A stretch of DNA of 64,000 nt from positions 34-64,033 of the forward strand of contig CAZIYE010000002.1 of assembly GCA_964543385.1 (NCBI GenBank). The letters are read 5' to 3'. The DNA comes from an uncultured Candidatus Saccharibacteria bacterium. Lineage in GTDB: Bacteria > Patescibacteriota > UBA1384 > XYA2-FULL-43-10 > 1-14-0-10-43-13. The translations under genes were made by a program, and so were the position numbers. Under the pieces are notes generated by a model. The model worked only from the letters and a program-made list of their open reading frames with translations. It searched no databases and had not been told where the DNA came from. Of this stretch, positions 365-19,856 are shown piece after piece; the first letter of the stretch is position 1; each line of letters starts with the position of its first letter.

Positions 365-700
365 TTGATCCTTGCACCTTCTGTAGCTTTCTTCAAACAT
401 TCACCAAGTATTTGGGGCACAAAAGAAGATTGGATTTCAGCAATTGTAGCTAATCTGATAGGCGGCTGTATCTTTTTCTGGGTTGATATATTTATCTTTA
501 AGAGCAAAAGTATCGAGAAATGGGAAATACTCAAAAGCGGCAAGTGTCATGATTGCGGCAAGAGTGATTTAGTAAAAAGGTTAGTTATAGCGCCTGGCGG
601 GTATGACAAATCAGACGACGAAGAGCCAGAATATAGATGTGTTATGTGCTCAGAAAAGAAGTTAGTTCAGTTAAAGAAACTTAGGAAAATAGCATCGTAA
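365..700 (+). CDS. small membrane-associated zinc-ribbon protein (hypothetical); start uncertain (TTG at 365 assumed, since the ORF track start at 272 lies inside tRNA-Gly)
   Basis: Open frame between tRNA-Gly and tRNA-His; one hydrophobic segment (ISAIVANLIGGCIFFWVDIFIF) and a CxxC...CxxC pair (CHDCGK...CVMCSEKK). Confidence 0.4.
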   Translation: MILAPSVAFFKHSPSIWGTKEDWISAIVANLIGGCIFFWVDIFIFKSKSIEKWEILKSGKCHDCGKSDLVKRLVIAPGGYDKSDDEEPEYRCVMCSEKKLVQLKKLRKIAS

Positions 701-705
701 AATAT

Positions 706-781
706 GGCGGCCATAGTGAAGTGGTTATCACGGCAGTTTGTGGCACTGCAATGATGGGTTCAATTCCCGTTGGCCGCCCCA
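706..781 (+). tRNA. tRNA-His (anticodon GTG) with encoded G-1
   Basis: Acceptor GCGGCCA/TGGCCGC with an extra 5' G opposite discriminator C, anticodon stem GCAGT/ACTGC with loop TTGTGGC, encoded CCA. Confidence 0.85.
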
Positions 782-787
782 AAATTT

Positions 788-864
788 GCGTCCATAGCTC
801 AGCTGGATAGAGCGCCTGTCTTCGGAACAGGAGGTCGGGGGTTCGAATCCCTCTGGGCGTACCA
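788..864 (+). tRNA. tRNA-Arg (anticodon TCG)
   Basis: Acceptor GCGTCCA/TGGGCGT (G1.U72 wobble), anticodon stem CCTGT/ACAGG with loop CTTCGGA, T-arm GGGGG-TTCGAAT-CCCTC, encoded CCA. Its last 20 nt are duplicated at 974-993. Confidence 0.9.
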
Positions 865-869
865 GTAAG

Positions 870-2507
870 TTATACGATAAGAATTAAAGTTATTTGAGGC
901 AAATCTAGTCGATTTGTAGAGGGATGAGAACCACCGACAGATTTGAGAAGTGGGTTGGGGGACCCGCAGGTGAGAATCCCTCTGGGCGTACCAAGAAGGA
1001 CAGGCTTCCTTTGAAAAGCCAATAATGCAGTCCAGAAGGGACTAATCTCGGTGTTTAAGTAGTCATTTCCGTCCCATGGCAACCCATTAGGGTATATTGA
1101 ACACATGAGCGTGCGCTTCTGTTTTAGGTCAGATTTTAGGTAAGTTTCGGTGATATTTACAAGCTTTGTTTTGACAAAAATAGTGATGGCTTCCAAATTA
1201 TACTTTTGGATTAGGTCATCATTTTTTGTTACATTAAGAGCCTGAATCTTTTCTTCGACCTTTCTATTTTGCTCCTTAAAAATATCGTCAGAGTAAACTC
1301 CTTGGATATTTTTCTCAATCAGAATCTGGCGAAAGTCATAGAGCTTCTTTAACTCCGTATCAGCAATCTCGCGTCTTTTTTGCAGCGTTGTTAGCCGTTC
1401 GCGATATTTTTGTCGGAGCCAAGCATTAAAATAGTCTGCCGTCTCTGCTTTTGGTTTTATGCCACCCAACAGCTCCTCAGTTTTATCATCTATCTTCACT
1501 CGATTTGTATTCGTCCCTTTGCAGCGATGCGGGCAGAAATAGTAGGGATAGCGTTGGTTTTTGCCCTTGCACCAGCCGGCAGTTAAAGATGCACCGCAAA
1601 TACTACACTTAACAATTCGGCGGAGCGGGAAGTCTGGATTATCAACGTTTCTTCGGGCTAGTGGCTTAGAAATATTCACATTTCTTCCATCTAAGACCGC
1701 TTGCACCTTGTAAAATTGCTCCTCGGTTACCATCGCCGGATGCTGACCTTGAACTTCAAGGTTGTATTTTTTTGAAAAGACTTTTCCCATATAAAACTTG
1801 TTTTTAAATATTTTACTCAAAGTTTGCGCCCTGATCATGCCCTCCTTGCCGTCTCTTTTGCCGCCTTTAATTCCGGCATCTCTTAAGATTTGCGCAACCT
1901 CTTTCAATGTCTTGTGCTCGGTTGCTATCAAGTCCCATGCTTTTCTGACCAGATCGAAAGTTTCCGGATCTTTGACAGCGTAACCGCTTTGATTAAGATA
2001 GCCAAGCGGAACAAAGCCGTTGCTAAGTCCTGACATAAATCGAGCTTTCATACCATTTTTTGATCTCTCGCTTCTAACATCATTATCCATCTGCGCAAAA
2101 CCAGCGAGCATTGTTTCGATAAACTTTTCCGTTGGGCTGCTGCCAGTAGGCTCTGTCGCAGAAACCAGCTTAATATCACATTCAGCCAACTTCTTTCGGA
2201 TAGCCAAATAGTCGGCTGTTTGGCGTGAGATTCGATCTAGTCGATAGACAATAACTGCTTCCACCTCTTTCTTGTGCTGCCGGCAATATTCGAGCATTTC
2301 AAGCAGAGCAGGTCTGCCAGCAATTGTCTTTGCAGATTTGCCTTCATCTCGAAAGATTTCGCCAACTTCTAGCTTTCGTTTCTCGGCTTCTTTTTTACAA
2401 ATATTTTCCTGAGTTTCGAGAGAATAATTATCAACCTGTTCTTCGGTTGAAACCCGCAGATAGATTACCGCTTTCGAAGCTTGCGCCGGAAAAATGTTAT
2501 TCATCAC
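870..2507 (-). CDS. large serine recombinase (resolvase/invertase N-terminal catalytic domain + recombinase domain + zinc ribbon)
   Basis: N-terminal VIYLRVSTEEQ...YRLDRISR serine-recombinase catalytic motif; central recombinase domain; CSICG...CPHRC zinc ribbon followed by a coiled-coil-like region; SD GGAGGGG upstream. The C-terminal ~60 aa are low-complexity and read across the tRNA-3'-end repeat. Confidence 0.85.
   Translation of the reverse strand: MMNNIFPAQASKAVIYLRVSTEEQVDNYSLETQENICKKEAEKRKLEVGEIFRDEGKSAKTIAGRPALLEMLEYCRQHKKEVEAVIVYRLDRISRQTADYLAIRKKLAECDIKLVSATEPTGSSPTEKFIETMLAGFAQMDNDVRSERSKNGMKARFMSGLSNGFVPLGYLNQSGYAVKDPETFDLVRKAWDLIATEHKTLKEVAQILRDAGIKGGKRDGKEGMIRAQTLSKIFKNKFYMGKVFSKKYNLEVQGQHPAMVTEEQFYKVQAVLDGRNVNISKPLARRNVDNPDFPLRRIVKCSICGASLTAGWCKGKNQRYPYYFCPHRCKGTNTNRVKIDDKTEELLGGIKPKAETADYFNAWLRQKYRERLTTLQKRREIADTELKKLYDFRQILIEKNIQGVYSDDIFKEQNRKVEEKIQALNVTKNDDLIQKYNLEAITIFVKTKLVNITETYLKSDLKQKRTLMCSIYPNGLPWDGNDYLNTEISPFWTALLAFQRKPVLLGTPRGILTCGSPNPLLKSVGGSHPSTNRLDLPQITLILIV
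974..993 (+). repeat. 20-bp direct repeat of the tRNA-Arg(TCG) 3' end (GAATCCCTCTGGGCGTACCA); att-like duplication
   Basis: Exact match to 845-864, 129 bp downstream. Preceded by GGGGG like the tRNA T-stem but with a divergent T-loop. Lies inside the 3' end of the recombinase ORF (minus strand). Confidence 0.8.
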
Positions 2508-2833
2508 CCCTCCCTTAATACCTCTCTTAATGTTTTGTTATTGAAAATTTGTCTCTCAAATTCATCCATCCAACAGTCGAGCAGAAACTCAAATTCCGTT
2601 AAATGCGCTTGGAGTTCTGAGTCGGAAAGGCTGGTTGCAACATCACCGAGTATCTTTCTCGCCCTGGCTAATTTATTTTCTGCTTTATCAAAATCAAAGA
2701 TATTTTCGAGGGCTGATTCAATCGAGTTGTCTTTGTGTTCTGAAAAATTGACTGCTGGCTCTTTGACTACTGGATAATTAGTCACAAATTGAGTTCTTGC
2801 AATTGGATTTAGAAGTTGTAGTTGACCGGACAT
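2504..2833 (-). CDS. hypothetical protein (109 aa) adjacent to the recombinase; possible accessory/regulatory factor
   Basis: ORF with SD AGGAGG (complement of 2841-2846) and a 40-bp palindrome immediately upstream; no family recognised. Confidence 0.55.
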   Translation of the reverse strand: MSGQLQLLNPIARTQFVTNYPVVKEPAVNFSEHKDNSIESALENIFDFDKAENKLARARKILGDVATSLSDSELQAHLTEFEFLLDCWMDEFERQIFNNKTLREVLREG

Positions 2834-2848
2834 TGAACACCCTCCTAT

Positions 2849-2888
2849 CTATGACTATATCCATAGTTTACTATGGATATAGTCATAG
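2849..2888. promoter_or_regulatory. near-perfect 40-bp palindrome (CTATGACTATATCCATAG-tta-CTATGGATATAGTCATAG) directly upstream of the 109-aa gene
   Basis: 18-bp arms are exact reverse complements. Sits between the SD of the 2504-2833 gene and the end of the 2974-3771 gene. Candidate operator or recombination site. Confidence 0.6.
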
Positions 2889-2973
2889 TGTCAAGAGAAA
2901 TGGTCGATAGTTTATCAATAAAATAGCCAGTCCTAGAGTACAAATATAGGTGTTCAAATATACGCCAATTTAA

Positions 2974-3771
2974 CTACGCTTTTTCCCAAACATCACCGCC
3001 AGATTCATTCGATTTGAGGCTCTCTAGTAAGGCGAACTGAATCGTAAAATCAGCATCTGGGTACTCATCGGCTCTGAGTCTTCGAGTATACCTTTTGGCA
3101 TAAATTAGTAGGTACATCGAATGACAAACAAAAAGTAGAGTCGGGAATTCATCCTCTATGTTATCCTCCCAGCCATTGGAATAGTACAGATCAAAATATC
3201 TTTTAATTTTATTACGGACTAAGGCGAAAGAAGAATATCTCTCAATTACTTCTAATAGGTAATACATTGTCACACTTTTGTTACTTGCTCGCTTTGCAAA
3301 AAGAAGTTCGGGCTTAATCTTGGCCTCCGTCAGGAAACAATAATCCGAATATGGCTCAGCCAATTCTGTTTTGGTTATAACTGAAGAATTCTCCGCTTCC
3401 ATATTTTTATTTAAAAAAGCCAGGCTAAGATCAGCAAGCAAAAGGGCATCGGTAATATGACCAGATGATCCAGACCCTGCTTCTGTTGTTATCTTAGGGA
3501 AGTACTTAGGGGTGATGAGATATTTTTTCGACAAATACGGAAGACTGTTAGGAGCTAGGTAATAGATAGATGGCCTTGTTCTTTCGACATAGCCGTTTGA
3601 CCAGATTCTTTTTAGATATTCATTTTCTGTTAGGTCTTTAAGCCAGCTGTTTATTCTTCTATGATCTTTATGTTTTAGGAATGATTGTATCTGTATTCTG
3701 TTTAGGAATTTGAATTTATATATTAGAGTTAGGATTTCTTGTTGTTTAGTTGTTATTGTTTGATTTGTCAT
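2974..3771 (-). CDS. replication-relaxation family-like winged-HTH protein (plasmid/ICE-type)
   Basis: N-terminus TTKQQEILTLIYKFKFLNRIQIQSFL matches the Replic_Relax pattern (LTxxQxxIL..IY.FRFL...QI..L); size 265 aa. Confidence 0.5.
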   Translation of the reverse strand: MTNQTITTKQQEILTLIYKFKFLNRIQIQSFLKHKDHRRINSWLKDLTENEYLKRIWSNGYVERTRPSIYYLAPNSLPYLSKKYLITPKYFPKITTEAGSGSSGHITDALLLADLSLAFLNKNMEAENSSVITKTELAEPYSDYCFLTEAKIKPELLFAKRASNKSVTMYYLLEVIERYSSFALVRNKIKRYFDLYYSNGWEDNIEDEFPTLLFVCHSMYLLIYAKRYTRRLRADEYPDADFTIQFALLESLKSNESGGDVWEKA

Positions 3772-3821
3772 GTTTTTTTGATTGATTATTTTTAGGACGA
3801 GTATTATTTATTTTTTCCCTA

Positions 3822-3854
3822 ACCTACCTAACCATATATGTGTATAGGGTAGGT
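3822..3854. repeat. hairpin (ACCTACC ... GGTAGGT) with 19-nt AT-rich loop, flanked by CCTAACC repeats
   Basis: 7-bp perfect stem seen in sequence; sits in the non-coding stretch upstream of the Replic_Relax-like gene. Confidence 0.4.
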
Positions 3855-3903
3855 GCTAAATATTTTCAAATTTAGCTTCAAAAACCCATATTTTTTGCCA
3901 CAG

Positions 3904-3929
3904 ATGACTGGGACAATTGACTGGGACAA
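3904..3929. repeat. two tandem 13-bp direct repeats (aTGACTGGGACAA / tTGACTGGGACAA); iteron- or operator-like
   Basis: Adjacent copies identical in 12 of 13 nt, ~135 bp upstream of the Replic_Relax-like gene start. Confidence 0.5.
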
Positions 3930-4232
3930 AACACTGGCCATCTAATACATTGTATAACACAAAATATGAAGGCCTCCAAGCCCAGAATGAGTTATTATGA
4001 TATCTCTCTGAAACAGACTGAAAAATGCAGTTTTATTAAGCTGAAAAATTTCTCAGCTAATTCTTAGTTCTTACTATAGTATTGGTGTAGTTTTTAAAAG
4101 AGACTTTGTTATTTTGAAGAACTAGGGCAAAAATTAACTACATATCCAATTTTTGATATTATCTGTAAATACTGCTTAAGGGATTGTCTAGATAGTGTGG
4201 AATTTATGGATTTATTAGAGACCGATATTGTT

Positions 4233-5180
4233 TTAGGTACGGACATTTTGCACTTTTAGCCTGAGGACTTGATTCGGTGTTTTGCCGTTCAGTCCGCAGT
4301 GTTTTAAATCATTGTAATACATATTCCAAAGCTTTGCTTGGTATTTTAATTCCTCCTCTGTTTTGTATCTAATCTTCTCATAAAAACTCTCCTGATCAGA
4401 TCGATGACTTCTCTCAACGCAACCGTTTTGAGCTGGTTTGCCTGGGTCAATCAAGTAATGAGCGATATCTAATCTCTCGCACTCAATATCTAGCGGATGA
4501 AGGTTTGGGTTAAATGGATCTTTGCTCTTAAGATAGCCGGTGTATCTGTTTGTGAAGATGCTGCCATTGTCAGTCTTAATTGCTTTAATCCGGTACGGAA
4601 ACCTTTGAATTACCTCGTTTAGGAAGTTCAGAGCATCAACATTGGCTTGCTGGTCATAGATCTTTAGGTAGCGCCATCTGGAGGCGCAGTCTATGGCAGT
4701 GAACTGGTAATACCTCTTCTCGTTGATCTTATCTGGCACGTATTTGACATCGATCTCAATTAGTTCACCGGGCAGGAGTAGTGTCTTTGGCTTCTGTGGA
4801 TACTGCTTCCTTGTGCGGTATTTCCGAGTCAGGCCGTCTGTCTTTAGGATCTTGCCAATAGTTCTCTCGTGGAGAAAGATGCCTTCGTCCGCCAGATCCC
4901 ACTTGATCTTTAGAGCACACTCGTCGTTCATCTCGTGGCGCAGCTCCAGCACCCGTTCTTTGATTCTGATTGGCGTTTCGTTGGGCTGAGACCTTGGTCT
5001 GGTTGAGTGGTTTTCAAGGCCGGCCAATCCATCCTCTCGGTATTGTTTTAACCAATACTTAATGGCTCTTTCTGAGAAAGGACAGACCAAGGCAAGGTCT
5101 TTAATCTTCATCCTTTTTTCCAAGACAGGAGTAATCCATCTTAGTTTTTCTTCTTGTGTCGAATTGGGCATTATCTTCAT
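4233..5180 (-). CDS. IS481-family DDE transposase (HTH + integrase-core/rve domain)
   Basis: N-terminal HTH and HSTRPRSQP motif typical of IS481; DDE core with IKTDNGSIF ... NGCVERSHRS. Confidence 0.85.
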   Translation of the reverse strand: MKIMPNSTQEEKLRWITPVLEKRMKIKDLALVCPFSERAIKYWLKQYREDGLAGLENHSTRPRSQPNETPIRIKERVLELRHEMNDECALKIKWDLADEGIFLHERTIGKILKTDGLTRKYRTRKQYPQKPKTLLLPGELIEIDVKYVPDKINEKRYYQFTAIDCASRWRYLKIYDQQANVDALNFLNEVIQRFPYRIKAIKTDNGSIFTNRYTGYLKSKDPFNPNLHPLDIECERLDIAHYLIDPGKPAQNGCVERSHRSDQESFYEKIRYKTEEELKYQAKLWNMYYNDLKHCGLNGKTPNQVLRLKVQNVRT

Positions 5181-5220
5181 GCTCCAAGTTAACCAAAAAG
5201 TGCAAAAAGTGTGTACACAT
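4235..5220 (-). mobile_element. IS481-family insertion sequence (~980 bp) with imperfect ~21-bp terminal inverted repeats
   Basis: IRL GTACGGACATTTTGCACTTTT (4238-4257) against the reverse complement of IRR AAAAGTGCAAAAAGTGTGTAC (5196-5216). A single transposase ORF fills the element. No clear target-site duplication. Confidence 0.8.
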
Positions 5221-5232
5221 TACCATATTTAC

Positions 5233-5262
5233 TTGAAGAAATAGCGGCCACTATTGTATAAT
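5233..5262 (+). promoter_or_regulatory. putative sigma-70 promoter (TTGAAG - 18 nt - TGtTATAAT, extended -10) for the large surface-protein gene
   Basis: Hexamers read directly; located 16 nt outside the IS right end and 34 nt upstream of the ATG. Confidence 0.4.
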
Positions 5263-5295
5263 ATAAACAGTTGAAAAATTATCTTTGTGAGGGCC

Positions 5296-8200
5296 ATGAT
5301 TAAAAAAAGCAGTTACCTTAAAATTTGCTTCGTCATATTTCTAATTTTGGGAATTTCTTTTCCACCTGTTTCAAGAATTGCTAAAGCGAGTAATCCAACT
5401 TACTATGTTAGTGTTATCAATGGACAACTGAAATACCGTCTTGATAATTGGCCTGACGGAAGTAACGGCACTATTCCAAATCCGAGTGATTTAAACCAGT
5501 TATTCTTTGACCTGAACAATGACAAGAGTATAGTTCTTGATGCTGGCACATATTCTGGAACGTTGCTAGATGCCACAGACGGTATTGATATTGGGCGATC
5601 CGGACAACACATTCGCTCTGCTGTCAGTACTGATCCTGATTATGCAAATCGATTAGGCGAGGTAATCATCGATGGGGCAGGCATGAATGATGATGTTTTT
5701 GTTCTAAATGCCTCCAATAATATCTCCGGCATCACTATTCGGGGAGCTGATGGGGGAAAGAGAAACTTGGTTATCTCTAGTGGGACAGCAATTATCAATG
5801 ACATGATTTTGTCGGGCGGTGATTCCGGTTTTCTTTTTTCCGGTTCTAGTAATGTGACATTAAATCGTGTAAAAGTGAGTAACGTTAGCAGTTATATCGG
5901 CGATGTCAACGGAGCTTCGGCAAACACTACTTTTAATTATGGCCAATTTACCGACAATGCCAGTCCGATCAGAGTTTTTAATGGCAATTTGACAGTTAAT
6001 AATTCAACCCTTGCCGGCACAAAGAACGAAGCGATTTATATAGCTAATAACAATGGCCAGCAAGTCATGGTAAATAACAGCATTATTACAGCATCCAGTA
6101 CTGATAACGCCAATAAAAATGCAATTTTAAATAGCTCCTCAAATGCGAGTTGCACGGTAAACAATACTCTCATCCACTCAAATCCGATGAATGGGAATTA
6201 CTTAACTAGCGGCTGCACCTTAAACAATGCGACGACTGATGAAGCTGCTGGTTTCATTTCGCCAAAGAGGCAGGGAATGGTTTCGATTGTGATTGACGAC
6301 GCTGCTAGCAAAGACTGGTTCGGCACGATGGCCGACCTAGCTGAAGAGAGAAATTTCCGGCTTACTTGGGCCGTCGACACAAGATACATGTCAATTCATG
6401 AATACTGGGGTAGTGCTATCGATTTTGCAAACCGCGGCCATGAAATTGCTTCCCACTCCAGCTCTCATTCTTATCTGACAGAGTTAAGAGGTATTAATAT
6501 TCAGTACATTGGGACCGGTGCTGCGGCGACCTTGTCGATCGATGCTGCAACAAAAACCCTAACAACCTCTGTGGCTGACAAGCCATCCGATAACCTTTCT
6601 ATCAACTTAAACAATTACACACTTCATGGTCTAGCCAATTTTATTGCTAGTTCTAAGGGTGGTTCGGCCTACGTGGGCACAATTGCGTCAAGTAACAACA
6701 ATGAAGTTCCTGCCAGCATTTTAAGCACAGTTTCAAATCAAAGCATCAAAGAATCCATTTATATTGCCAATTTAAATGCTGATGCATACTACAGTTATGA
6801 AATACAAGGGTCAAAAACAGCAATCGAAACACAGATCGGCAATGGGTATGTGGTAAAATCTTTACACTATCCTTTCTGGCAAAGCAACTCTAACGTCAGA
6901 GACGCAGTCTCATCTGCCGGATATATTGGCGCAAGAGGCTTTGATGGTACTCGCTTGATTTCCGATATTGCCGCCTTTGAAACATACGGAATTCAAGTCG
7001 GAAACCTTTTTGGAGCTTTAAACACTAATCCAAACGAGACCCAAATAAAAGGAAGAGTTCATGCCTTGGCGCAATATCTTAATCATGTCGGTGGATTTAT
7101 CACGCTTGTTGCGCACAATAGCTTAATGGAGGGCGACTATACTCAACAGGAGTGGATCTGGGTGATGGACGCGCTAAAGGAAAGCGGTATTCAAGTTTTA
7201 CCATACGGCGAAGCAATAGAAGGGATAATTCAAGATGCAGAGTCTACCAGTGGAAGTGACGGGAGTCTTCATTATCTTAGAAGTCAATTGCACCTAGGAG
7301 ATCAATCGGATTATAGTCTGAGTCCTTTGTCGGTTGGAATAGATGCTGGTTCTAATCTTAGCCTAACAGCAGACTTTCTCGGGAATCCAGTTTATGGCTC
7401 CCCGGACCTTGGCGCTTTTGAATTTCAACCTAATTATCTCATTGGCGATGATCAAATTGACATAACTGCCGGCGCTAAAATCTATGCTGATGGCAAGTTT
7501 CGCAATCTTGGAACTAGCTCTGGAAATATCGCTGACTTAGTTGTCAAACCAGAGGGTGGCAATTTCAGTACTTATGGACAAAATGAAACTAGACCCGTCT
7601 GGCTTGAAATTGAGAATATTGTTTGGTCAAATACCGGCACCCGACATAAGCAATGGGTGGAAAACTCTGATTTCCCTGGTCTTACAAATACTTTGCATGT
7701 TGTTGGTGATTTGTTACCGAGTAAATTATATAATGTTAAAGTAGATAGCGTGCTCGGGCAGAATATTACGGGTGATGCATGTACTTCTGGTGTTTGCCGA
7801 TCTGACTCAAATGGGCAAATAACCTTCACCTATACAGGCACTTATTCTGCACACACCTTTGATATCGAAGAGGGTGATAATTTTGGACCTCAAATTGTGA
7901 GTGTCACCGCTGAAAACCAGGATGGTTATTATTATGCTGGCGACACTCTCAATATTCTAGTCGAGTTCTCTGAGAACGTAGCTGTTGCTGGGATTCCTCG
8001 ACTGCAGATGCGTACTAATAATGGAGATAAATATGCAAATTATTATTCTGGTAGCAACTCTTCTGTATTAGTATTCAATTATTTAGTCGAGATTGGCGAC
8101 CGGACTGATGATCTAGACTATTCTAATGTTGATTCTTTGGATCTTAATTCTGGAACAATCCGAGATTCTGTTGGTAATGATGCGGTTTTGTTATTGCCGC

Positions 8201-8925
8201 TTCCTGGTCAGCAATACTCGTTGGGCTTTAACAAGACTATTATTATTGATCAGGAGCAGCCTGTCGTTACAGATGTGACTTCTATCTCATCAAATGGCAC
8301 ATATAAGGTGGGTCAAGCCATTATTATTCGACTTATTGCTTCTGAGACGGTTATAGTGTCCGGAAAACCGAAATTGCAGCTTGATACTAATAACGGTGAC
8401 CGCTTTGCTATCTATAGCCAAGGTTCGGGTTCTCCAAATATTGACTTTTCTTTTGAAGTCGACGTTAACGATTCAACAGAAAGATTAAACTATGTTGATA
8501 TAAATTCCCTGGGTATGAATGGCGGCTCGATTGTTGATTTAGCAGGAAATCCTCTAGTTGCAATTTTGCCATCGCCATCCGGCCCCAATTCCCTTGCTCA
8601 TTATGCAAAAATTTTTATAGCGAAAACCACTAATGATTTTAACTCTCAAGGTACTCAAGATGATGGCCAGAGCATTTCCTCAATTAATTCTGAAAAAATA
8701 GTCACTCCCAAAACAATCGATGACAATTTAGAGGTAGCGGAAAATGAAAATACTGAACTAGCTCAAAAAGATACAGATAGAAGTAATGGTCAAAAAGAGT
8801 CAGCAATAAACGAGGTTAATGCTAAAAAAACACCTTTTAATACCATCGCACTTATTATCATATTGGGTATTGCTATTTCAGCTATTAGCTTTAGCGCTTT
8901 ATCTAAGTTAAAACCCAGAAAATAA
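5296..8925 (+). CDS. large secreted/cell-surface protein (~1,210 aa): signal peptide, right-handed beta-helix repeats, NodB/CE4 polysaccharide-deacetylase domain, two tandem ~110-aa Ig-like repeats, C-terminal TM anchor with basic tail
   Basis: N-terminal MIKKSSYLKICFVIFLILGISF signal. N/S/T-rich beta-helix-like repeats (NNSTLAGT, NNSIITAS). CE4 motifs VIDDA ... HEIASHSSSH. Two paralogous repeats (PQIVSVTAENQDGYYYAGDTLNI... / PVVTDVTSISSNGTYKVGQAIII...). C-terminal IALIIILGIAISAISFSALSKLKPRK. The ORF track start (GTG 5287) was moved to the ATG at 5296. Confidence 0.8.
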   Translation: MIKKSSYLKICFVIFLILGISFPPVSRIAKASNPTYYVSVINGQLKYRLDNWPDGSNGTIPNPSDLNQLFFDLNNDKSIVLDAGTYSGTLLDATDGIDIGRSGQHIRSAVSTDPDYANRLGEVIIDGAGMNDDVFVLNASNNISGITIRGADGGKRNLVISSGTAIINDMILSGGDSGFLFSGSSNVTLNRVKVSNVSSYIGDVNGASANTTFNYGQFTDNASPIRVFNGNLTVNNSTLAGTKNEAIYIANNNGQQVMVNNSIITASSTDNANKNAILNSSSNASCTVNNTLIHSNPMNGNYLTSGCTLNNATTDEAAGFISPKRQGMVSIVIDDAASKDWFGTMADLAEERNFRLTWAVDTRYMSIHEYWGSAIDFANRGHEIASHSSSHSYLTELRGINIQYIGTGAAATLSIDAATKTLTTSVADKPSDNLSINLNNYTLHGLANFIASSKGGSAYVGTIASSNNNEVPASILSTVSNQSIKESIYIANLNADAYYSYEIQGSKTAIETQIGNGYVVKSLHYPFWQSNSNVRDAVSSAGYIGARGFDGTRLISDIAAFETYGIQVGNLFGALNTNPNETQIKGRVHALAQYLNHVGGFITLVAHNSLMEGDYTQQEWIWVMDALKESGIQVLPYGEAIEGIIQDAESTSGSDGSLHYLRSQLHLGDQSDYSLSPLSVGIDAGSNLSLTADFLGNPVYGSPDLGAFEFQPNYLIGDDQIDITAGAKIYADGKFRNLGTSSGNIADLVVKPEGGNFSTYGQNETRPVWLEIENIVWSNTGTRHKQWVENSDFPGLTNTLHVVGDLLPSKLYNVKVDSVLGQNITGDACTSGVCRSDSNGQITFTYTGTYSAHTFDIEEGDNFGPQIVSVTAENQDGYYYAGDTLNILVEFSENVAVAGIPRLQMRTNNGDKYANYYSGSNSSVLVFNYLVEIGDRTDDLDYSNVDSLDLNSGTIRDSVGNDAVLLLPLPGQQYSLGFNKTIIIDQEQPVVTDVTSISSNGTYKVGQAIIIRLIASETVIVSGKPKLQLDTNNGDRFAIYSQGSGSPNIDFSFEVDVNDSTERLNYVDINSLGMNGGSIVDLAGNPLVAILPSPSGPNSLAHYAKIFIAKTTNDFNSQGTQDDGQSISSINSEKIVTPKTIDDNLEVAENENTELAQKDTDRSNGQKESAINEVNAKKTPFNTIALIIILGIAISAISFSALSKLKPRK

Positions 8926-9034
8926 ATAGCTAATCTATGCAAGAGTTTTTGAGATGATGTCCAGCAAGTGGTATTTCCTTGCGAGTGAAATCTGAACCTT
9001 GTTTTTTGGGCCTAATTTTGTTATGATATGGAGC

Positions 9035-9247
9035 ATGATGAGTAAAAATGAAAGCTCGATAAGCTTAGGTGATCAGATAAGAACTGCTAGAGAAAAGGCA
9101 GGACTGACACAAGCGGATGTTGCGAAGGCGGCTAGTATTGACGTCAGTTATTATGCTGAGATTGAGCGAAATGCTGTAAACCCTTCATATCGTAAGATTC
9201 AAGCGATTGCAAAAGTCCTCAAGATCAAGTCGATCAGTGTTTCATAA
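9035..9247 (+). CDS. XRE-family helix-turn-helix transcriptional regulator (ORF track start 8999; ATG at 9035/9038 more likely)
   Basis: LGDQIRTAREKAGLTQADVAKAASIDVSYYAEIERNAVNPSYRKIQAIAKVLKI matches the Cro/C1 HTH_3 pattern; a disrupted paralog lies at 19599-19817. Confidence 0.75.
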   Translation: MMSKNESSISLGDQIRTAREKAGLTQADVAKAASIDVSYYAEIERNAVNPSYRKIQAIAKVLKIKSISVS

Positions 9248-9285
9248 TCTACTCATTGTTTACATCGTTAAAAGCACTCATCAAC

Positions 9286-9336
9286 TGGTTTAGCCAGCTT
9301 AAAAGGTGTTCAAAACAAAGTCCCTCAAGGGTACCA
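9286..9336 (+). repeat. conserved 'arm' (TGGTTTAGCCA-n7-AGGTGTTCAAAACAAA) followed by a degenerate tRNA-Arg-like 3' end (CCCTCAAGGGTACCA); putative distal att site of the integrated element
   Basis: The same arm with the same spacing recurs at 19857-19890 after the XRE pseudogene. 9322-9336 matches the tRNA-Arg(TCG) 3' end CCCTCTGGGCGTACCA at 12 of 16 positions, in direct orientation. Confidence 0.5.
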
Positions 9337-9457: not shown

Positions 9458-9533
<76 letters not shown>

Positions 9534-10676: not shown

Positions 10677-10751
10677 GGCCTCATCGTCTATCGGTTAGGA
10701 CACCACGCTTTCAATGTGGTAAGAGGGGTTCGACTCCCCTTGAGGCTACCA
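10677..10751 (+). tRNA. tRNA-Glu (anticodon TTC)
   Basis: Acceptor GGCCTCA/TGAGGCT (G1.U72), anticodon stem CCACG/TGTGG with loop CTTTCAA, T-arm AGGGG-TTCGACT-CCCCT, CCA encoded; begins 3 nt after tRNA-Lys. Confidence 0.85.
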
Positions 10752-10951
10752 AATGAATCGAACAACTTTATATTAATGATTTATCTCTCTGGAATTCATA
10801 TTCTGGTGTTCGATAAACATTGCGAGTTATATGAAAAAGCATTGCTGCGAGGCGATGCTTTTTCATTTACAAAACTAAGTACTTGACAACATAGTATTTG
10901 GGTATATATTCATAAAGTAGACATAAAAAATTTTGAAAGGAGGTGAGAAAA

Positions 10952-11191
10952 ATGCCAAATTTAGATCAAACAGGTCCGCAAGGACAGGGTCCCATGACCG
11001 GACGAGGAATGGGTCCATGTGGAGGCGGAGCGCGTCGAGGGATGGGTTGTGGTAGAGGTTACGGACGTTTCGCAGGCCGTTCATATCTATCAAAATCCGA
11101 GGAATTGGATGAGCTGGAAGATGAAGCCAAGGCAATGGAAGCTGACCTAAAAGCTCTCAAGGAAAGAATCTCTGAGATCAGGGGAGAATAG
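10952..11191 (+). CDS. DUF5320-like glycine-rich small protein (GPMTGRG...C motif, C-terminal coiled coil)
   Basis: MPNLDQTGPQGQGPMTGRGMGPCGGG... matches the DUF5320 N-terminal motif as remembered; strong SD AAAGGAGGTGAG 7 nt upstream of the ATG at 10952 (ORF track shows an earlier GTG). Confidence 0.6.
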   Translation: MPNLDQTGPQGQGPMTGRGMGPCGGGARRGMGCGRGYGRFAGRSYLSKSEELDELEDEAKAMEADLKALKERISEIRGE

Positions 11192-11196
11192 AAAAA

Positions 11197-11239
11197 GCCG
11201 TCCCGATGCTCCGGAAATTTATCCGGAGATCGGGGCGAC
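11197..11239 (+). terminator. compound GC-rich hairpin after the DUF5320 gene (no clear U-tract)
   Basis: Inner stem CTCCGG/CCGGAG and outer stem GTCCCGAT/ATCGGGGC read from sequence. Confidence 0.35.
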
Positions 11240-11299
11240 CCGCAATTAGATTATTATCAAAAAATCATCTTTAATCAATATTAAAGCGAGGGAAAAGTA

Positions 11300-12031
11300 A
11301 TGAGATTAGAAAATAAGGTTGCTATTGTAACAGGCGCTTCATCTGGCATAGGAAGAGCAATCGCCGAAAAATTTACAAAAGAAGGTGCCAGGGTTATTTA
11401 TTCCGACATAAACGCACCGGAAGGTTTCGAAAAAACGGACAGTGTCCTGTTTGTTAAATGCGATGTTTCTAAATCAGAAGAAGTAGAAACTTTAATCGAC
11501 AAAGCAATTGATCATTTTGGCAGGATTGACATTATGGTAAACAACGCCGGAATCGGCGGATTAGGCGGTGTGCTTGATGTAACTGATGAAAATTGGGATA
11601 AAACAATCGGAATAAATCTTTCTGGCGTAATGTATGGTATGCGGGCAGCGGCTAATAAAATGAAGGAAGCTGGCATTAAAGGCGTAATTATAAATATGAG
11701 TTCAATTTTGGGTAGTGTCGGTTTTAATGGAGCTATCGCATACTGCGCGGCAAAAGGGGGTATTGTTCAACTCACTCACGCAGGATCTCTCGACCTCGCT
11801 CAGTACCAAATTAGGGTAAACGCTATTGCCCCAGGTTTCATTGAAACAAATATGACAAAAGATATACTTAAAAATGAACAATTTAATCAATTAGTAACTG
11901 GTTCAACTCCATTGGGCTATGTTGGCGAGCCGGATGATATTGCCAATGCCGCTGTTTACTTGGCATCAGATGAGGCCAAATATGTCACCGGTAATATTCT
12001 TTATGTTGATGGCGGCTGGACGGCTAAATAG
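11300..12031 (+). CDS. short-chain dehydrogenase/reductase (FabG-like, NAD(P)-dependent)
   Basis: TGASSGIG Rossmann motif, NNAG, catalytic YCAAK; 243 aa. Confidence 0.85.
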   Translation: MRLENKVAIVTGASSGIGRAIAEKFTKEGARVIYSDINAPEGFEKTDSVLFVKCDVSKSEEVETLIDKAIDHFGRIDIMVNNAGIGGLGGVLDVTDENWDKTIGINLSGVMYGMRAAANKMKEAGIKGVIINMSSILGSVGFNGAIAYCAAKGGIVQLTHAGSLDLAQYQIRVNAIAPGFIETNMTKDILKNEQFNQLVTGSTPLGYVGEPDDIANAAVYLASDEAKYVTGNILYVDGGWTAK

Positions 12032-12041
12032 AAAGGAAGCA

Positions 12042-12524
12042 ATGAGACCAAGAAAATTTAGGCATGTTTGTATGAATCCTGAAATAAGATTCTTTAAACC
12101 TCAGGGTGTTCCGATGAGCCAGTTGGAAGTTATTGATCTAACTGACGAAGAGCTTGAAGCATTAAGGCTAAAGAATATAGAGGATCTAGATCAAATAGTT
12201 GCCGCAGAAAAAATGGGCACATCGCAAAGTACTTTCCAAAGGATTCTAACTTCGGCTTACAAAAAAATTTCCGACGCGTTGGTAAACGGCAAAGCGATTA
12301 AAATCAAAGAGATTGAAAGACCGATGAGAAAGTTTGAATGTTGGAAGTGCAAACACACATGGGAGGAGCCTTTTGGCAATGGCAGGCGCGGAATTGATAT
12401 GAGCTGCCCGGAGTGCAAAGGCGAAGAGATTCATCGTTGTGATAACAACGGTCATGGTTTTGGCAATCAATTTTGGGGGCACAAAGGTGGAACGGATAAA
12501 ATAGATAAAAGCTCTGGCAATTAA
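12042..12524 (+). CDS. DUF134 (UPF0251) predicted DNA-binding protein with C-terminal C4 zinc ribbon
   Basis: FKPQGVP...LTDEELEALRLKNIEDLDQIVAAEKMGTSQSTFQRILTSAYKKISDALVNGKAIKI is the DUF134 signature; C-terminal CWKC...CPEC. Start reassigned to ATG 12042 (SD AGGAAG) after the SDR stop. Confidence 0.65.
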   Translation: MRPRKFRHVCMNPEIRFFKPQGVPMSQLEVIDLTDEELEALRLKNIEDLDQIVAAEKMGTSQSTFQRILTSAYKKISDALVNGKAIKIKEIERPMRKFECWKCKHTWEEPFGNGRRGIDMSCPECKGEEIHRCDNNGHGFGNQFWGHKGGTDKIDKSSGN

Positions 12525-12598
12525 ATATTTTCGATATTAAAGATCAATAAATCAATGACCTATACGAAGAAGAGTGAATAATTAACTAAATAATTTTC

Positions 12599-12817
12599 AT
12601 GCAAAAATCAAAAATATCAGGGATTCTAATGATTTCCTCAGCTATAATTCTCGCAGCCTTAGTAATCGGCTATACTGTTCTATTTTCAATTTTTGGGATC
12701 AAATCCGGTGGTTCGTTTTTAATGGTTATTCCCTTACTTGTAATCGCAGTTGGCGTAATAATGGCTCTATTTTTTCTTTTGCGCGCTGGAATTAAGCAGA
12801 TAAAAAATAATAAATAA
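12599..12817 (+). CDS. small two-TM membrane protein (hypothetical)
   Basis: 72-aa ORF, two hydrophobic helices. Confidence 0.5.
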   Translation: MQKSKISGILMISSAIILAALVIGYTVLFSIFGIKSGGSFLMVIPLLVIAVGVIMALFFLLRAGIKQIKNNK

Positions 12818-12852
12818 TTTAGCGTTGTTTTATAATGCTGACGGAGGAGTAA

Positions 12853-13122
12853 ATGAAAGTACTAAAATTTGGTGCCATATGGTGTCCTGGTTGTTTGATT
12901 ATGAAGCCGATGTGGCAAGAAATTGAGAAAGAAAACAGTTGGCTTAAGAATGAATACTATGACTATGATGAAAACAGAGAGATGGCTGATAAATGGCAAG
13001 TCAATGATACTCTGCCTACTTTTATCTTTGTCGATAAAGACGAGAACGAGATTCTACGCCTACAGGGCGAGCGCTCAAAGACAGAACTGTTAAAACTTAT
13101 TGAAGAGTATAAGGACAAGTAA
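12853..13122 (+). CDS. thioredoxin-like protein (WCPGC active site)
   Basis: KFGAIWCPGCLIMKP motif, 89 aa, SD GGAGGAG upstream. Confidence 0.75.
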   Translation: MKVLKFGAIWCPGCLIMKPMWQEIEKENSWLKNEYYDYDENREMADKWQVNDTLPTFIFVDKDENEILRLQGERSKTELLKLIEEYKDK

Positions 13123-15511: not shown

Positions 15512-15545
15512 TCAGCATCACAATTAGGTTAAAAGAAGGGGCAAG

Positions 15546-15914
15546 ATGATAAAATCAGATGACGGATCAAAAACAATAAGATGGATAGCAAGAATTTTGG
15601 CTACCGCTTTTTTATTGTTTGGTCTGCCTTTTTATTTTGGTTATGGTAACCCGCTGCCTTTTGTTAGTCCTGGTTACACTTTGTGGGACAATGTTTGGCT
15701 AACAATTTTCCCGGTTGTTTTTGTAGGATTAGCAGTTGGCTGGTTAAATGAGAAGGTTGGCGGACTTTTGATAGTGATCCCGATAATAATTGGATTCATG
15801 ATGGTGTTTGTCGCAGACAAAGACATTTCCCCTCACATGCTGATACCATTTATTGTAGGTGTTTTGTATATTCTATCTAATAAAGAAATACGTAAAAAAA
15901 CTGGAGAAAAATGA
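15546..15914 (+). CDS. small multi-TM membrane protein (hypothetical)
   Basis: 122-aa ORF with 3-4 hydrophobic helices; overlaps the next gene by 4 nt. Confidence 0.5.
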   Translation: MIKSDDGSKTIRWIARILATAFLLFGLPFYFGYGNPLPFVSPGYTLWDNVWLTIFPVVFVGLAVGWLNEKVGGLLIVIPIIIGFMMVFVADKDISPHMLIPFIVGVLYILSNKEIRKKTGEK

Positions 15915-16657: not shown

Positions 16658-16663
16658 GAAATT

Positions 16664-17895: not shown

Positions 17896-18024
17896 ATAAA
17901 TTATTCGGTCGTCAAAATATTCATTTTTGGCAGCTAAAGTCTTTATCTATTACTTTTTTAAATTTTGTTTGTCTTAGTTGGTTGTGGTAAAATCAACATA
18001 GAAACATTATTAACGGAGGGAAAA

Positions 18025-19817: not shown

Positions 19818-19856
19818 TTATTTTCATCCGCTCCGTCCTCAAAAGATCTCATAAAA

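What the first reader, a model, noticed from the sequence alone, without database searches (positions are those of the whole stretch)
788..9336. ~8.5 kb integrated element downstream of tRNA-Arg(TCG): serine recombinase, palindrome-guarded small gene, Replic_Relax-like protein, IS481 insertion, giant surface protein, XRE regulator, degenerate distal att
The region between tRNA-Arg(TCG) and the conserved arm plus tRNA-like remnant at 9286-9336 has the layout of an integrative element. The recombinase sits next to the tRNA and its frame reads across a duplicated tRNA 3' end. There are plasmid-type replication/relaxation functions with upstream iterons, a later IS insertion, one large cargo gene, and a terminal XRE regulator. 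Its left end is tRNA-Arg(TCG) at 788-864 and the next tRNA, tRNA-Arg(TCT), begins at 9458 just past the distal remnant. A large serine recombinase (rather than a tyrosine integrase) targeting a tRNA 3' end is uncommon.
Basis: partly seen in the sequence, partly recalled or inferred. Interest (0 to 1): 0.65.

Follow-up and report, generated by a model that had tools for sequence, protein, structure and literature searches.

The report
Serine-recombinase mobile element at tRNA end
An 8.4-kb mobile DNA element sits at the very end of a tRNA-Arg gene in a candidate-phyla-radiation (Patescibacteria) bacterium, and its serine recombinase belongs to a large, apparently undescribed clade that targets tRNA ends and loses a conserved piece of its own tail each time it integrates.

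Summary
Window 974-9336 (8,363 bp) occurs at 100% identity in other metagenome contigs whose flanks are only 87-93% identical. Identity breaks at the same two points, each ending in GTACCA, the last six bases of tRNA-Arg(TCG). Related genomes have tRNA-Arg(TCG) followed about 110-130 bp later by tRNA-Arg(TCT) with no insert.

The element carries a large serine recombinase (LSR), a coupled 109-aa protein behind a palindromic operator/promoter, a Replic_Relax protein, an IS481-like insertion, a 1,212-aa surface-protein cargo and an XRE regulator.

Main new result: the LSR belongs to a clade with more than 1,500 protein clusters, almost all from Patescibacteria. In 69 of 80 genomes examined, its 3' end runs antisense into a tRNA or tmRNA gene; 62 share one reading register. 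The attachment site lies inside the recombinase gene. In the free form the gene continues into the far arm and encodes a conserved tail (G-x-L-[DE]-x-L-x-F-E-H-L-L-x-W-L). A natural sibling contig shows this contiguous form. Integration replaces the tail with antisense-tRNA sequence.

Not found: an empty site or a circle for this exact element. The crossover dinucleotide and the tail's function are unresolved.

The parts
788..864 (+). tRNA-Arg(TCG), the integration target. Its last six bases, GTACCA (859-864), are the core shared with the element.
   Evidence: ARAGORN; Rfam tRNA, 67.2 bits. In L093 and L003 the element abuts this tRNA end directly.
865..993 (.). 129-bp insertion specific to this assembly: a 109-bp unique spacer (865-973) plus a second copy of the tRNA's last 20 nt (974-993). 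It is not part of the element proper. The element's left junction core, GTACCA, is 988-993.
   Evidence: 20-nt exact repeat. Absent from L093, whose host flank is 100% identical. The spacer has no other copy in the window or in 95 loci.
870..2504 (-). Large serine recombinase, integrated form, 544 aa. The conserved body ends at Gly505 (codon 990-992, the reverse complement of the tRNA discriminator plus CC). The last 39 residues are read from the tRNA-end copy and the spacer.
   Evidence: Pfam Resolvase, Recombinase and Zn ribbon. PHROG integrase, 7e-84. Alignment A1 has invariant Ser19, four invariant Cys and invariant Gly505. Three tail variants of 541, 544 and 564 aa occur on an otherwise identical protein.
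2504..2833 (-). 109-aa protein (p109) of unknown fold. Its stop overlaps the LSR start. It is the conserved partner of the recombinase and a candidate accessory or directionality factor.
   Evidence: A homologue lies directly upstream of the LSR in 79 of 80 family loci. 375 representative homologues. No Pfam, PHROG, NCBIfam or PDB match. The model is helical, with pLDDT 80-93 over the C-terminal 60 aa.
2849..2894 (-). Perfect palindrome with 19-nt arms (2849-2888), overlapping a promoter-like site (TTGACA-18 nt-TAAACT, 2894-2865) for the p109-LSR operon. Putative operator.
   Evidence: The region is conserved at 76-85% in L014-L016. Related palindromes lie upstream of p109 in many family loci, e.g. 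L017, L025, L046 and L078.
2974..3771 (-). Replic_Relax (PF13814) protein, a putative relaxase or replication initiator.
   Evidence: Pfam, 33 bits against a gathering score of 25.3. PHROG 'replication initiation protein', 6e-8. Homologues in 40 of 80 family loci.
3905..3937 (.). 13-nt direct repeat (2.4 copies) about 135 nt upstream of the Replic_Relax gene. A weak candidate binding site or origin.
   Evidence: Tandem Repeats Finder. The region is conserved up to 3931 in L022 and L034.
4225..5228 (-). IS481-like insertion sequence: transposase 4233-5180 and 33-nt imperfect terminal inverted repeats.
   Evidence: Pfam rve and HTH domains. NCBIfam IS481, 212.5 bits against a cutoff of 224. Inverted repeats 76% complementary. 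Present in every copy of this element seen. In the 80 family loci only two weak rve matches turn up, elsewhere in L059 and L082.
5287..8925 (+). Cargo: a 1,212-aa predicted surface protein, with an N-terminal signal-like segment, a polysaccharide-deacetylase domain, beta-helix-like repeats and a C-terminal hydrophobic anchor.
   Evidence: Translation. Pfam PF01522, 33 bits. PHROG 30287, 4.5e-24. No homologue in 80 family loci, so it is element-specific cargo.
9038..9247 (+). XRE-family helix-turn-helix regulator, convergent with the recombinase tail-coding segment.
   Evidence: Pfam HTH_3, 6.6e-14. Called as 69-70 aa in other assemblies. An XRE in the same position in 21 family loci.
9249..9336 (-). 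P arm of the attachment site (attR side). It is also the detached coding segment for the recombinase C-terminal tail (GTLEGLCFEHLLSWLNQLMSAFNDVNNE*). The core GTACCA is 9331-9336. The stop codon lies one base (9248) past the XRE stop.
   Evidence: Identity to other copies ends at 9336. Reconstructed free-form ORF of 532 aa. The tail peptide is conserved in 15 far arms and in L095. The contiguous form exists in L095.
9458..9533 (+). tRNA-Arg(TCT), the next host gene. It lies 121 nt from the element here and 8 nt in the second host.

Best explanation
Window 974-9336 is an 8.4-kb integrative, plasmid-like element in a Patescibacteria (CPR) genome. The overall picture is well supported; the tail's function, the role of p109, the regulatory circuit and the transfer route are the weak parts.

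Shown:
- The element is inserted at the extreme 3' end of tRNA-Arg(TCG).
- The two junctions share only GTACCA: the last two acceptor-stem bases, the discriminator and CCA.
- The tRNA stays intact.

Inferred mechanism: its large serine recombinase recombines an attachment site on the free circle (attP) with the tRNA end (attB). The exchange occurs somewhere inside GTACCA.

Shown by reconstruction and by a natural sibling contig: attP lies inside the recombinase gene.
- The near arm is the last roughly 30 codons of the conserved recombinase body.
- The core overlaps the invariant Gly505 codon, which is the reverse complement of discriminator + CC.
- The far arm encodes a conserved 27-aa tail, ending one base from the stop of a convergent XRE gene.
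- Integration therefore splits the gene. The chromosomal copy makes a recombinase whose conserved tail is replaced by whatever antisense tRNA sequence encodes. Three different tails are seen on the same protein.

Inferred:
- The tail swap changes recombinase activity or stability between the free and integrated states.
- The translationally coupled 109-aa protein is an accessory or directionality factor.
- The palindrome over the operon promoter is where a repressor, possibly the XRE protein, keeps the module off.
- The Replic_Relax protein lets the excised circle replicate or be mobilised.

The same architecture holds across a clade of more than 1,500 recombinase clusters that target at least 24 different tRNA species and tmRNA.
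For: Mobility:
- 8,363 bp are 100% identical in L002, L003, L004, L006 and L007. Their flanks are 93% identical over tRNA-Arg/His and 87% over tRNA-Pro/Gly, and the right-hand spacer differs.
- L093 has the window's host flank at 100% but a different junction.
- L094 is a 91%-identical sibling at the same tRNA end.
- L029 and L033 show the uninterrupted Arg(tcg)-Arg(tct) arrangement.
- GC is 40.2%, against 36.9 +/- 0.7% and a maximum of 38.0% for host windows of the same size.

Recombinase:
- Domain hits.
- Invariant catalytic Ser and Cys4.

Clade-wide tRNA targeting:
- 266 relatives in GTDB species representatives.
- Of the 80 fetched, 69 have a convergent tRNA or tmRNA at the LSR 3' end. 62 are in the same T|GGN register. 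7 more end at a contig break.

attP inside the gene:
- Conservation in alignment A1 stops at Gly505. Many tails then read G-I/T-R-T, which is antisense T-arm sequence.
- The reconstructed free-form ORF is 532 aa.
- The tail motif is conserved in 15 far arms. Codon-position entropies are 0.91, 0.60 and 1.12 bits.
- In L095/P0031 the LSR body, the core AAAGTCCCTCAAGGGTACCAAG, the tail and the convergent XRE are contiguous.

Partner gene: in 79 of 80 loci.

Short common cores of 5-8 bp are characteristic of serine integrases (PMC8092301).
Against: - No empty site and no circular junction were recovered for this exact element. The two metagenome scans and one viral scan returned nothing. The metagenome collection also missed a sequence known to exist in JGI contigs, so those negatives are uninformative.
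- The crossover dinucleotide could not be placed. A dyad-symmetry search on six reconstructed attP sites gave no consistent centre.
- The far-arm conservation includes an invariant GAACAC at all three codon positions. Part of the 'tail' conservation therefore reflects a DNA binding site rather than protein function.
- p109 has no recognisable fold or family.
- Replic_Relax support is modest (33 bits), and it has no match among PLSDB plasmids.
- No transfer or packaging genes are present.
- The 129-bp insertion at 865-993 is unexplained.
Confidence: 0.85

Rival explanations
1. The region is ancestral chromosome: a gene cluster that happens to lie between two tRNA-Arg genes. The repeats would be decayed tRNA duplications and nothing is mobile.
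For: tRNA clusters commonly hold short tRNA-like repeats (family D1). No empty site or circle for this exact element was found.
Against: The copies are 100% identical over 8,363 bp while the flanks are only 87-93% identical, and identity stops exactly at the GTACCA cores. Related genomes lack the insert. The element has a GC excess. The 'remnant' is a conserved arm found in many other elements.
Confidence: 0.02
2. The element moved between hosts by homologous recombination or transformation using the conserved flanking tRNA genes. The recombinase would be an inactive passenger.
For: Patescibacteria are reported to be naturally competent (own knowledge, not tested here). The tRNA flanks are similar enough to offer some homology. 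The chromosomal recombinase lacks its conserved tail.
Against: Identity ends within the 6-bp core on both sides, not at variable points inside the flanking tRNAs. The right-hand flanks (8 nt against 121 nt) share no homology next to the junction. The same precise junction register recurs in 62 unrelated loci at 24 different tRNA species. That fits site-specific recombination, not homologous exchange.
Confidence: 0.05
3. The far-arm 'tail' is not a functional part of the protein. Its conservation would reflect only the DNA site that the recombinase binds, and the open frame across attP would be incidental. Integration would then have no regulatory meaning.
For: GAACAC and neighbouring bases are invariant at all codon positions. 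Serine-integrase attP arms are known to carry conserved binding motifs (established knowledge). Chromosomal copies with unrelated tails persist in very many genomes.
Against: Entropy is lowest at codon position 2 and highest at position 3. Leucine positions vary at positions 1 and 3 only. The frame stays open for 24-52 codons in 16 of 16 arms. It ends one base from the XRE stop here and 8 nt from it in L095.
Confidence: 0.3
4. The element is a small prophage or phage satellite rather than a plasmid-like or mobilisable element.
For: The recombinase's best PHROG match is a phage integrase family. An XRE repressor at one end is prophage-like.
Against: There are no capsid, portal, terminase or lysis genes in 8.4 kb. 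The recombinase is at most 28.5% identical to any phage integrase in 50,697 phage records. The viral-contig scan for the attP junction found nothing. Half of the family carries a Replic_Relax gene.
Confidence: 0.07

Closest known systems
Phage and ICE large serine recombinases (serine integrases: phiC31, Bxb1, TP901-1, A118, CcrAB, XisF)
   Same: Resolvase catalytic domain, recombinase domain and Cys4 zinc ribbon, with a long helical insert. Short common core between attP and attB: 6 bp here, against the 5-8 bp reported for Int-S systems in PMC8092301. The recombinase gene sits at the edge of the element.
   Different: - At most 28.5% identity to any phage integrase, and far below every NCBIfam cutoff.
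- Known members mostly insert inside protein-coding genes. tRNA or tmRNA use by serine integrases was described as previously unreported and seen in only 14 of 297 cases (PMC7192596). Here it is the rule for the clade.
- attP lies inside the recombinase ORF, and a fixed 109-aa partner gene is present.
SSV-type ('suicidal') tyrosine integrases of archaeal viruses and plasmids
   Same: The recombination site lies within the integrase ORF, so integration splits the integrase gene (abstract of PMC7253208). The targets are tRNA genes (own knowledge for SSV1).
   Different: - They are tyrosine recombinases of Archaea, unrelated in fold and chemistry.
- There the gene is cut into two inactive pieces. 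Here only the last 27 codons are detached, and the catalytic and DNA-binding domains stay intact.
- Whether the integrated form here is active is unknown.
IME_PF13814 integrative mobilisable elements of streptococci (serine integrase + Rel_PF13814 relaxase + VirD4)
   Same: A small integrative element that combines a serine integrase with a PF13814 (Replic_Relax) protein (PMC7563491).
   Different: - No VirD4 coupling protein here.
- The streptococcal elements sit in intergenic regions rather than at tRNA ends.
- The host phylum is different.
- PF13814 is present in only half of this clade's loci.
Classical tRNA-integrating genomic islands and prophages with tyrosine integrases (P4/lambda-type; Islander/TIGER islands)
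   Same: Insertion at the 3' end of a tRNA or tmRNA gene, with the element supplying the displaced bases so the tRNA stays intact. The integrase is next to the tRNA.
   Different: The recombinase is of the serine family. The shared core is 5-7 bp rather than the 25-76 bp typical of tRNA attB sites (PMC8092301). The integrase gene converges on the tRNA and overlaps it antisense.
Integration-dependent immunity of mycobacteriophages (attP inside the repressor gene)
   Same: Integration changes the C-terminus of a phage-encoded protein because attP lies in its coding sequence, giving different protein forms in the free and integrated states (PMC8092301).
   Different: There the affected gene is the repressor, the integrase is of the tyrosine type, and the functional consequence (loss of a degradation tag) is demonstrated. 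Here the affected gene is the recombinase itself, and the consequence is only inferred.

Membership tests
Large serine recombinase (serine integrase) | N-terminal resolvase-type catalytic domain with the nucleophilic serine | tested here: met
   PF00239, E=1e-33 over residues 13-157. Ser19, Arg17 and the Y-R-L-D-R-x-S-R block are invariant in 24 aligned relatives.
Large serine recombinase (serine integrase) | C-terminal recombinase domain plus zinc-ribbon domain | tested here: met
   PF07508, 50.2 bits against a gathering score of 21.1. PF13408, 23.3 bits, just under 25.3. The precomputed Pfam list gives PF13408 for many relatives. Cys300, Cys303, Cys324 and Cys328 are invariant.
Large serine recombinase (serine integrase) | Coiled-coil motif inserted in the zinc-ribbon domain that controls directionality | not tested
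   A long charged helical stretch (about residues 345-430) is visible in the sequence. No structure of the recombinase was predicted because both prediction jobs went to p109.
Large serine recombinase (serine integrase) | Short attP/attB sites with a 2-bp crossover and a short common core | tested here: inconclusive
   The common core is 6 bp, GTACCA. Cores of 5-7 bp are seen in relatives. The crossover dinucleotide was not located, and the minimal site size is not testable here.
Integrative element with demonstrated mobility | The same element in different genomic backgrounds with precise common end points | tested here: met
   100% identity over 8,363 bp with flanks 87-93% identical. Three junction contexts were seen.
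Integrative element with demonstrated mobility | Empty target site and excised circular junction for the same element | tested here: inconclusive
   Exact-pattern scans found nothing, but the collection lacks the relevant samples. Indirect support: the empty arrangement in related genomes, and the contiguous attP form in the sibling contig L095.
SSV-type self-splitting integrase | attP located inside the integrase ORF, so that integration splits the gene | tested here: met
SSV-type self-splitting integrase | Tyrosine recombinase catalytic fold | tested here: not met
   The protein is a serine recombinase. It works like this family in one respect only and is not a member.
IME_PF13814 (streptococcal integrative mobilisable elements) | PF13814 relaxase-type protein together with a serine integrase | tested here: met
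   PF13814, 33 bits against a gathering score of 25.3, plus the LSR. Family definition from PMC7563491.
IME_PF13814 (streptococcal integrative mobilisable elements) | VirD4-type coupling protein in the mobilisation module | tested here: not met
   The ORFs over 80 aa are the LSR, p109, Replic_Relax, the IS transposase, the surface protein and XRE, plus two unscanned frames that lie inside genes. None of those scanned has a coupling-protein domain.
IS481 family insertion sequence | DDE (rve) transposase matching the family model, with terminal inverted repeats and a target duplication | tested here: inconclusive
   The rve domain and HTH domains are present. IS481 is the best NCBIfam model, but at 212.5 bits it is under the 224 cutoff. 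Inverted repeats of 33 nt are 76% complementary. No clear target duplication; at most ATAT.

The most novel reading that the evidence does not exclude
A Patescibacteria-wide clade of serine integrases has made the universal 3' end of tRNA genes (last acceptor bases, discriminator, CCA) its crossover region. It can therefore retarget among any tRNA or tmRNA by changing only the arm sequences. The obligatory swap of the integrase's conserved C-terminal helix on integration acts as a built-in state sensor: the free-form protein integrates, and the tail-less chromosomal form is inactive, unstable or competent only for excision with the 109-aa partner. This would be a bacterial, serine-family counterpart of archaeal self-splitting integrases.
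Probability: 0.35. Interest if true: 0.85.

Novelty: new variant of a known kind. Interest (0 to 1): 0.75.

Why it matters
**Target choice.** Serine integrases are thought to avoid tRNA genes. The one large survey I could read found 14 of 297 cases and called such use previously unreported (PMC7192596). Here tRNA and tmRNA ends are the rule for a clade with more than 1,500 protein clusters. That bears on the open question of why tyrosine but not serine integrases favour tRNA genes.

**Candidate directionality control.** Having the attachment site inside the recombinase gene gives every integration event a fixed consequence for the enzyme. This offers a simple, testable candidate for directionality control that does not depend only on a separate factor.

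**Mobile DNA in Patescibacteria.** These bacteria have tiny genomes, and little is known about their mobile DNA. The elements are 5.5-11 kb, carry variable cargo (here a 1,212-aa surface protein) and appear to have moved very recently between diverged hosts. They are therefore a likely route of gene flow and possible vectors for genetic tools in these organisms.

**Possible tools.** A family of orthogonal integrases with short, predictable tRNA-end target sites could also be useful for genome engineering.

Tried and rejected
1. Exact-pattern scan of metagenome contigs for the predicted empty sites (GAATCCCTCTGGGCGTACCAYGWARA): 0 hits.
2. Scan of the same collection for the element's recombinase-end junction: 0 hits. 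That sequence is known to exist in JGI contigs (L002, L006), so the collection does not hold those samples. Both negatives are uninformative.
3. Viral-contig scan for the predicted attP junction: 0 hits.
5. A 70-aa query (end of the LSR plus the predicted tail) to fish for free-form proteins found no candidates, because too few words were shared. One protein search was wasted. The free form was instead found by scanning the 124 proteins already fetched (P0031).
6. Look-ups of flanking host proteins for empty-site contigs: one protein was not on record; for the other, all contigs break inside tRNA-Arg(tct).
7. Dyad-symmetry search on six reconstructed attP sites to place the crossover: 10-12 matches of 22 at inconsistent centres. 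Rejected as evidence.
8. Structure of p109. The 8-sequence alignment gave pLDDT 62 and the 75-sequence alignment gave 69. Foldseek against the PDB gave nothing below E=4. A profile search of PDB sequences returned only coiled-coil noise.
9. I considered whether the 109-bp spacer is the tail end of a sibling element. Rejected: it lacks the conserved arm motif and the tail peptide.
10. I tried to show an IS-free version of the insertion point. Similarity to the nearest relatives (L022, L034) ends at 3931, before the IS, so there is no answer.
11. Replic_Relax protein against PLSDB plasmids: no match.

Full report
**1. What is in the sequence**

ARAGORN and Rfam confirm tRNA-Arg(tcg) at 788-864 and tRNA-Arg(tct) at 9458-9533. 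Both lie in a tRNA cluster: Pro, Gly, His, Arg ... Arg, Lys, Glu. The genes between them are these:

| Coordinates | Feature | Support |
|---|---|---|
| 870-2504 (-) | Large serine recombinase (LSR) | Resolvase E=1e-33; Recombinase 3e-13; Zn ribbon 23.3 bits, below the 25.3 gathering score |
| 2504-2833 (-) | 109-aa ORF (p109); its stop overlaps the LSR start | No family match |
| 2849-2888 | Perfect palindrome with 19-nt arms | |
| 2974-3771 (-) | Replic_Relax protein | PF13814, 33 bits; gathering score 25.3 |
| 4225-5228 | IS481-like element, transposase 4233-5180 (-) | 33-nt inverted repeats |
| 5287-8925 (+) | 1,212-aa protein | Polysaccharide-deacetylase domain; signal-like N-terminus; hydrophobic C-terminus |
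| ends 9247 (+) | XRE regulator | HTH_3, 6.6e-14 |

The last 20 nt of the tRNA (845-864) recur exactly at 974-993, and the recombinase frame reads through that copy. The 'iterons' are only a 13-nt unit repeated 2.4 times at 3905-3937.

**2. Boundaries and proof of mobility**

Exact-protein look-ups returned other assemblies that carry the same genes.

- In L002 (JGI 3300045131), L003, L004, L006 and L007, window 974-9336 is present at 100% identity over 8,363 bp. The flanks differ. The tRNA-Arg/His stretch is 93% identical and the tRNA-Pro/Gly stretch 87%.
- In that second host, tRNA-Arg(tct) starts 8 nt beyond the element's end. In the window it starts 121 nt beyond it.
- The junctions in the second host read ...CCCTCTGGGCGTACCA|AGAAGGACAGG... 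and ...AAAGTCCCTCAAGGGTACCA|CGTAAATGT. In the window they read ...GGGCGTACCA|AGAAGG... and ...AAGGGTACCA|TGAAGAAG.... Both ends therefore carry GTACCA, the last six bases of the tRNA, and identity stops there.
- A 91%-identical sibling (L094) sits at the same tRNA end in another sample.
- Two more distant genomes (L029, L033) have tRNA-Arg(tcg) followed 107-131 bp later by tRNA-Arg(tct), with nothing between.
- The element is 40.2% GC. Host windows of the same size are 36.9 +/- 0.7% GC, with a maximum of 38.0%.

The host is a Patescibacteria (CPR) bacterium. Its flanking genes are about 70% identical at the DNA level to MAGs labelled Patescibacteria or Saccharibacteria.

**3. The extra 129 bp**

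L093 has the window's own host flank at 100% identity (window 464-864). There the element abuts the genuine tRNA end directly. Relative to L093, the window carries an insertion of 129 bp: a unique 109-bp spacer plus one copy of the 20-nt tRNA end. The spacer occurs nowhere else in the window or in 95 loci. It lacks the conserved arm of this element family.

It is most simply the scar of another tRNA-integrating element with a 20-nt core, but this is unproven. An independent Logan assembly of the same run (L001) has the same structure, so it is unlikely to be a MAG assembly artefact.

**4. A clade-wide rule**

The recombinase has more than 1,500 homologous protein clusters. The top 120 are 57-89% identical and cover only about 92% of the query.

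- In an alignment of 24 relatives, conservation ends abruptly at invariant Gly505. After it the tails differ in length and sequence. Many read G-(I/T)-R-T..., which is what antisense tRNA T-arm DNA (GGGATTCGAACC) encodes.
- A scan of one genome per species found 266 relatives, and the best 80 were fetched. Nearly all are Patescibacteria: Berkelbacteria, Saccharibacteria, Microgenomates lineages and CPR2.
- In 69 of the 80, a tRNA or tmRNA gene on the opposite strand overlaps or abuts the recombinase 3' end.
- In 62 of those the register is identical: ...xxT|GGN..., where TGG is the reverse complement of CCA. The invariant glycine codon is thus the reverse complement of discriminator + CC (57 GGT, 5 GGC).
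- Seven more loci end at a contig break, and four have no tRNA.
- The seven in another register involve tRNA genes called without an encoded CCA (six of them) or a frame offset (L036, L074).
- At least 24 tRNA species and one tmRNA are used.

**5. The attachment site is inside the recombinase gene**

- The far end of the element (9286-9336) is conserved in other family members as ...AGCCAGGCTAAAAGGTGTTCGAAACAAAGT, then about 12 nt, then NCCA. The last 5-7 nt match the 3' end of whichever tRNA that member occupies.
- Joining 9336 to 994, as excision would, extends the recombinase ORF to 532 aa with the tail GTLEGLCFEHLLSWLNQLMSAFNDVNNE. Its stop codon lies one base beyond the stop of the convergent XRE gene.
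- The same peptide, G-x-L-[DE]-x-L-x-[FY]-E-H-L-L-x-W-L..., is encoded in frame in 15 far arms.
- Across 16 sequences, mean entropy at codon positions 1, 2 and 3 is 0.91, 0.60 and 1.12 bits. Leucine codons vary only at positions 1 and 3, which is a coding signature. GAACAC is invariant at every position, which points to a DNA-level constraint as well.
- One database protein, P0031 (64% identical), already carries this tail. Its contig L095 has p109, the recombinase body, the core AAAGTCCCTCAAGGGTACCAAG, the tail and the convergent XRE gene all contiguous. This is the predicted attP form occurring naturally in a sibling with the same tRNA-Arg core.
- For the window's own recombinase, three chromosomal versions exist that differ only after Gly505, at 541, 544 and 564 aa. 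Each reads into its own flank.

**6. Other conserved parts**

- A p109 homologue lies immediately upstream of the recombinase in 79 of 80 loci. It has 375 representative homologues but no Pfam, PHROG, NCBIfam or PDB relative. A model built from 75 sequences is helical and confident only over the C-terminal 60 residues. It has no structural match.
- The palindrome overlaps a promoter-like site, TTGACA-18 nt-TAAACT, directly upstream of p109. The region is conserved in L014-L016. Related palindromes recur upstream of p109 in other loci.
- Replic_Relax occurs in 40 of 80 loci and XRE in 21. The surface protein occurs in none, so it is element-specific cargo. The IS turns up only as two weak rve matches in L059 and L082.
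- Where both ends could be placed, the distance from the far-arm start to the tRNA-side junction is about 5.5-11 kb (coordinates).

**7. How it most likely works**

Shown:
- Site-specific insertion at the tRNA end with a 6-bp common core.
- An intact tRNA after insertion.
- A recombinase gene that spans attP.
- Tail replacement on integration.

Inferred:
- The serine recombinase catalyses attP x attB exchange within GTACCA. The exact dinucleotide is unresolved, because the symmetry analysis was inconclusive.
- The operon is repressed through the palindrome.
- p109 is an accessory or directionality factor.
- The tail swap alters activity or stability between the free and integrated states.
- Replic_Relax supports replication or mobilisation of the excised circle.

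The transfer route is unknown, since no conjugation or capsid genes are present.

**8. Comparison with known systems**

- The enzyme is a member of the large serine recombinases, but a distant one. It is at most 28.5% identical to phage integrases and far below all NCBIfam cutoffs.
- Use of tRNA or tmRNA genes by serine integrases was called previously unreported, and seen in 14 of 297 cases, in PMC7192596. My literature searches combining serine recombinases with Patescibacteria, CPR, Saccharibacteria and tRNA found no description of this clade.
- The split-gene logic resembles the archaeal SSV-type 'suicidal' tyrosine integrases (PMC7253208). The chemistry differs, and here only the tail is removed.
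- The pairing of a serine integrase with a PF13814 protein matches the streptococcal IME_PF13814 class (PMC7563491). This element has no VirD4 and a different target.

**9. Verdict**

It leads to a broader result: a very large, apparently undescribed clade of tRNA-end-targeting, self-truncating serine integrases with a fixed small partner protein. I rate it a new variant of a known kind, with interest 0.75. The element's identity and mobility are well supported. The functional meaning of the tail swap and of p109 is hypothesis.

Noticed in passing
window 10752-19907 (XRE-like 19635-19814; arm ending 19907): A second island of about 9.1 kb follows tRNA-Glu(ttc) (10677-10751). It ends in an XRE-like gene that appears to carry an in-frame stop. 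After that comes a paralogue of the element's far arm (67% identical over 227 nt) whose last bases, GAGGCTACCA, equal the tRNA-Glu 3' end. The arm still encodes the tail peptide (..GSLDAICFEHLMDWLNHF..). No recombinase, p109 or Replic_Relax remains. In L017, tRNA-Glu is followed within about 200-290 bp by RNase Y. This looks like a decayed sibling element that keeps metal-transport and redox cargo.
   Followed up: partly
window 865-993: A 129-bp insertion (a unique 109-bp spacer plus a 20-nt copy of the tRNA-Arg 3' end) lies between the tRNA and the element. It is absent from L093, which has an identical host flank. Its origin is unknown; it may be the scar of another tRNA-integrating element.
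   Followed up: partly
L049:11494-11922: One family member has its recombinase 3' end overlapping the 3' end of a tmRNA gene in the same reading register as the tRNA cases.
   Followed up: no
L048, L071, L086, L087, L089-L092: Several MAGs labelled Gammaproteobacteria, Pseudomonadales, Brocadiaceae, Sulfotelmatobacter or Bacillota carry this recombinase type. In L071, L086, L087 and L089-L091 it sits next to a tRNA gene; L048 and L092 have no tRNA on the contig. These are either mis-binned Patescibacteria contigs or a wider host range.
   Followed up: no
L052: about 5130-5146 and about 11460-11476: In L052 the bases just outside the far-arm core (ATCTGGACACCC) resemble those just inside the tRNA-side junction (ATCTGGACTTGA). 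This hints at a tandem or remnant copy beside the element.
   Followed up: no
window 32348-32735 (-): tmRNA gene with a long tag peptide, AKSLVERVKTAFAGFAFAPVAA. A similar long tag occurs in L063.
   Followed up: no
L041, L043, L073, L078: Four family loci have no tRNA at the recombinase 3' end although sequence continues beyond it, and their tails are unrelated to the conserved motif. They may use non-tRNA targets or be rearranged.
   Followed up: no
tool behaviour: The metagenome-contig collection returned no hit for a 33-nt sequence that is present in JGI contigs delivered by the look-up of encoding contigs (L002, L006). Negative pattern scans there do not cover those samples.
   Followed up: yes
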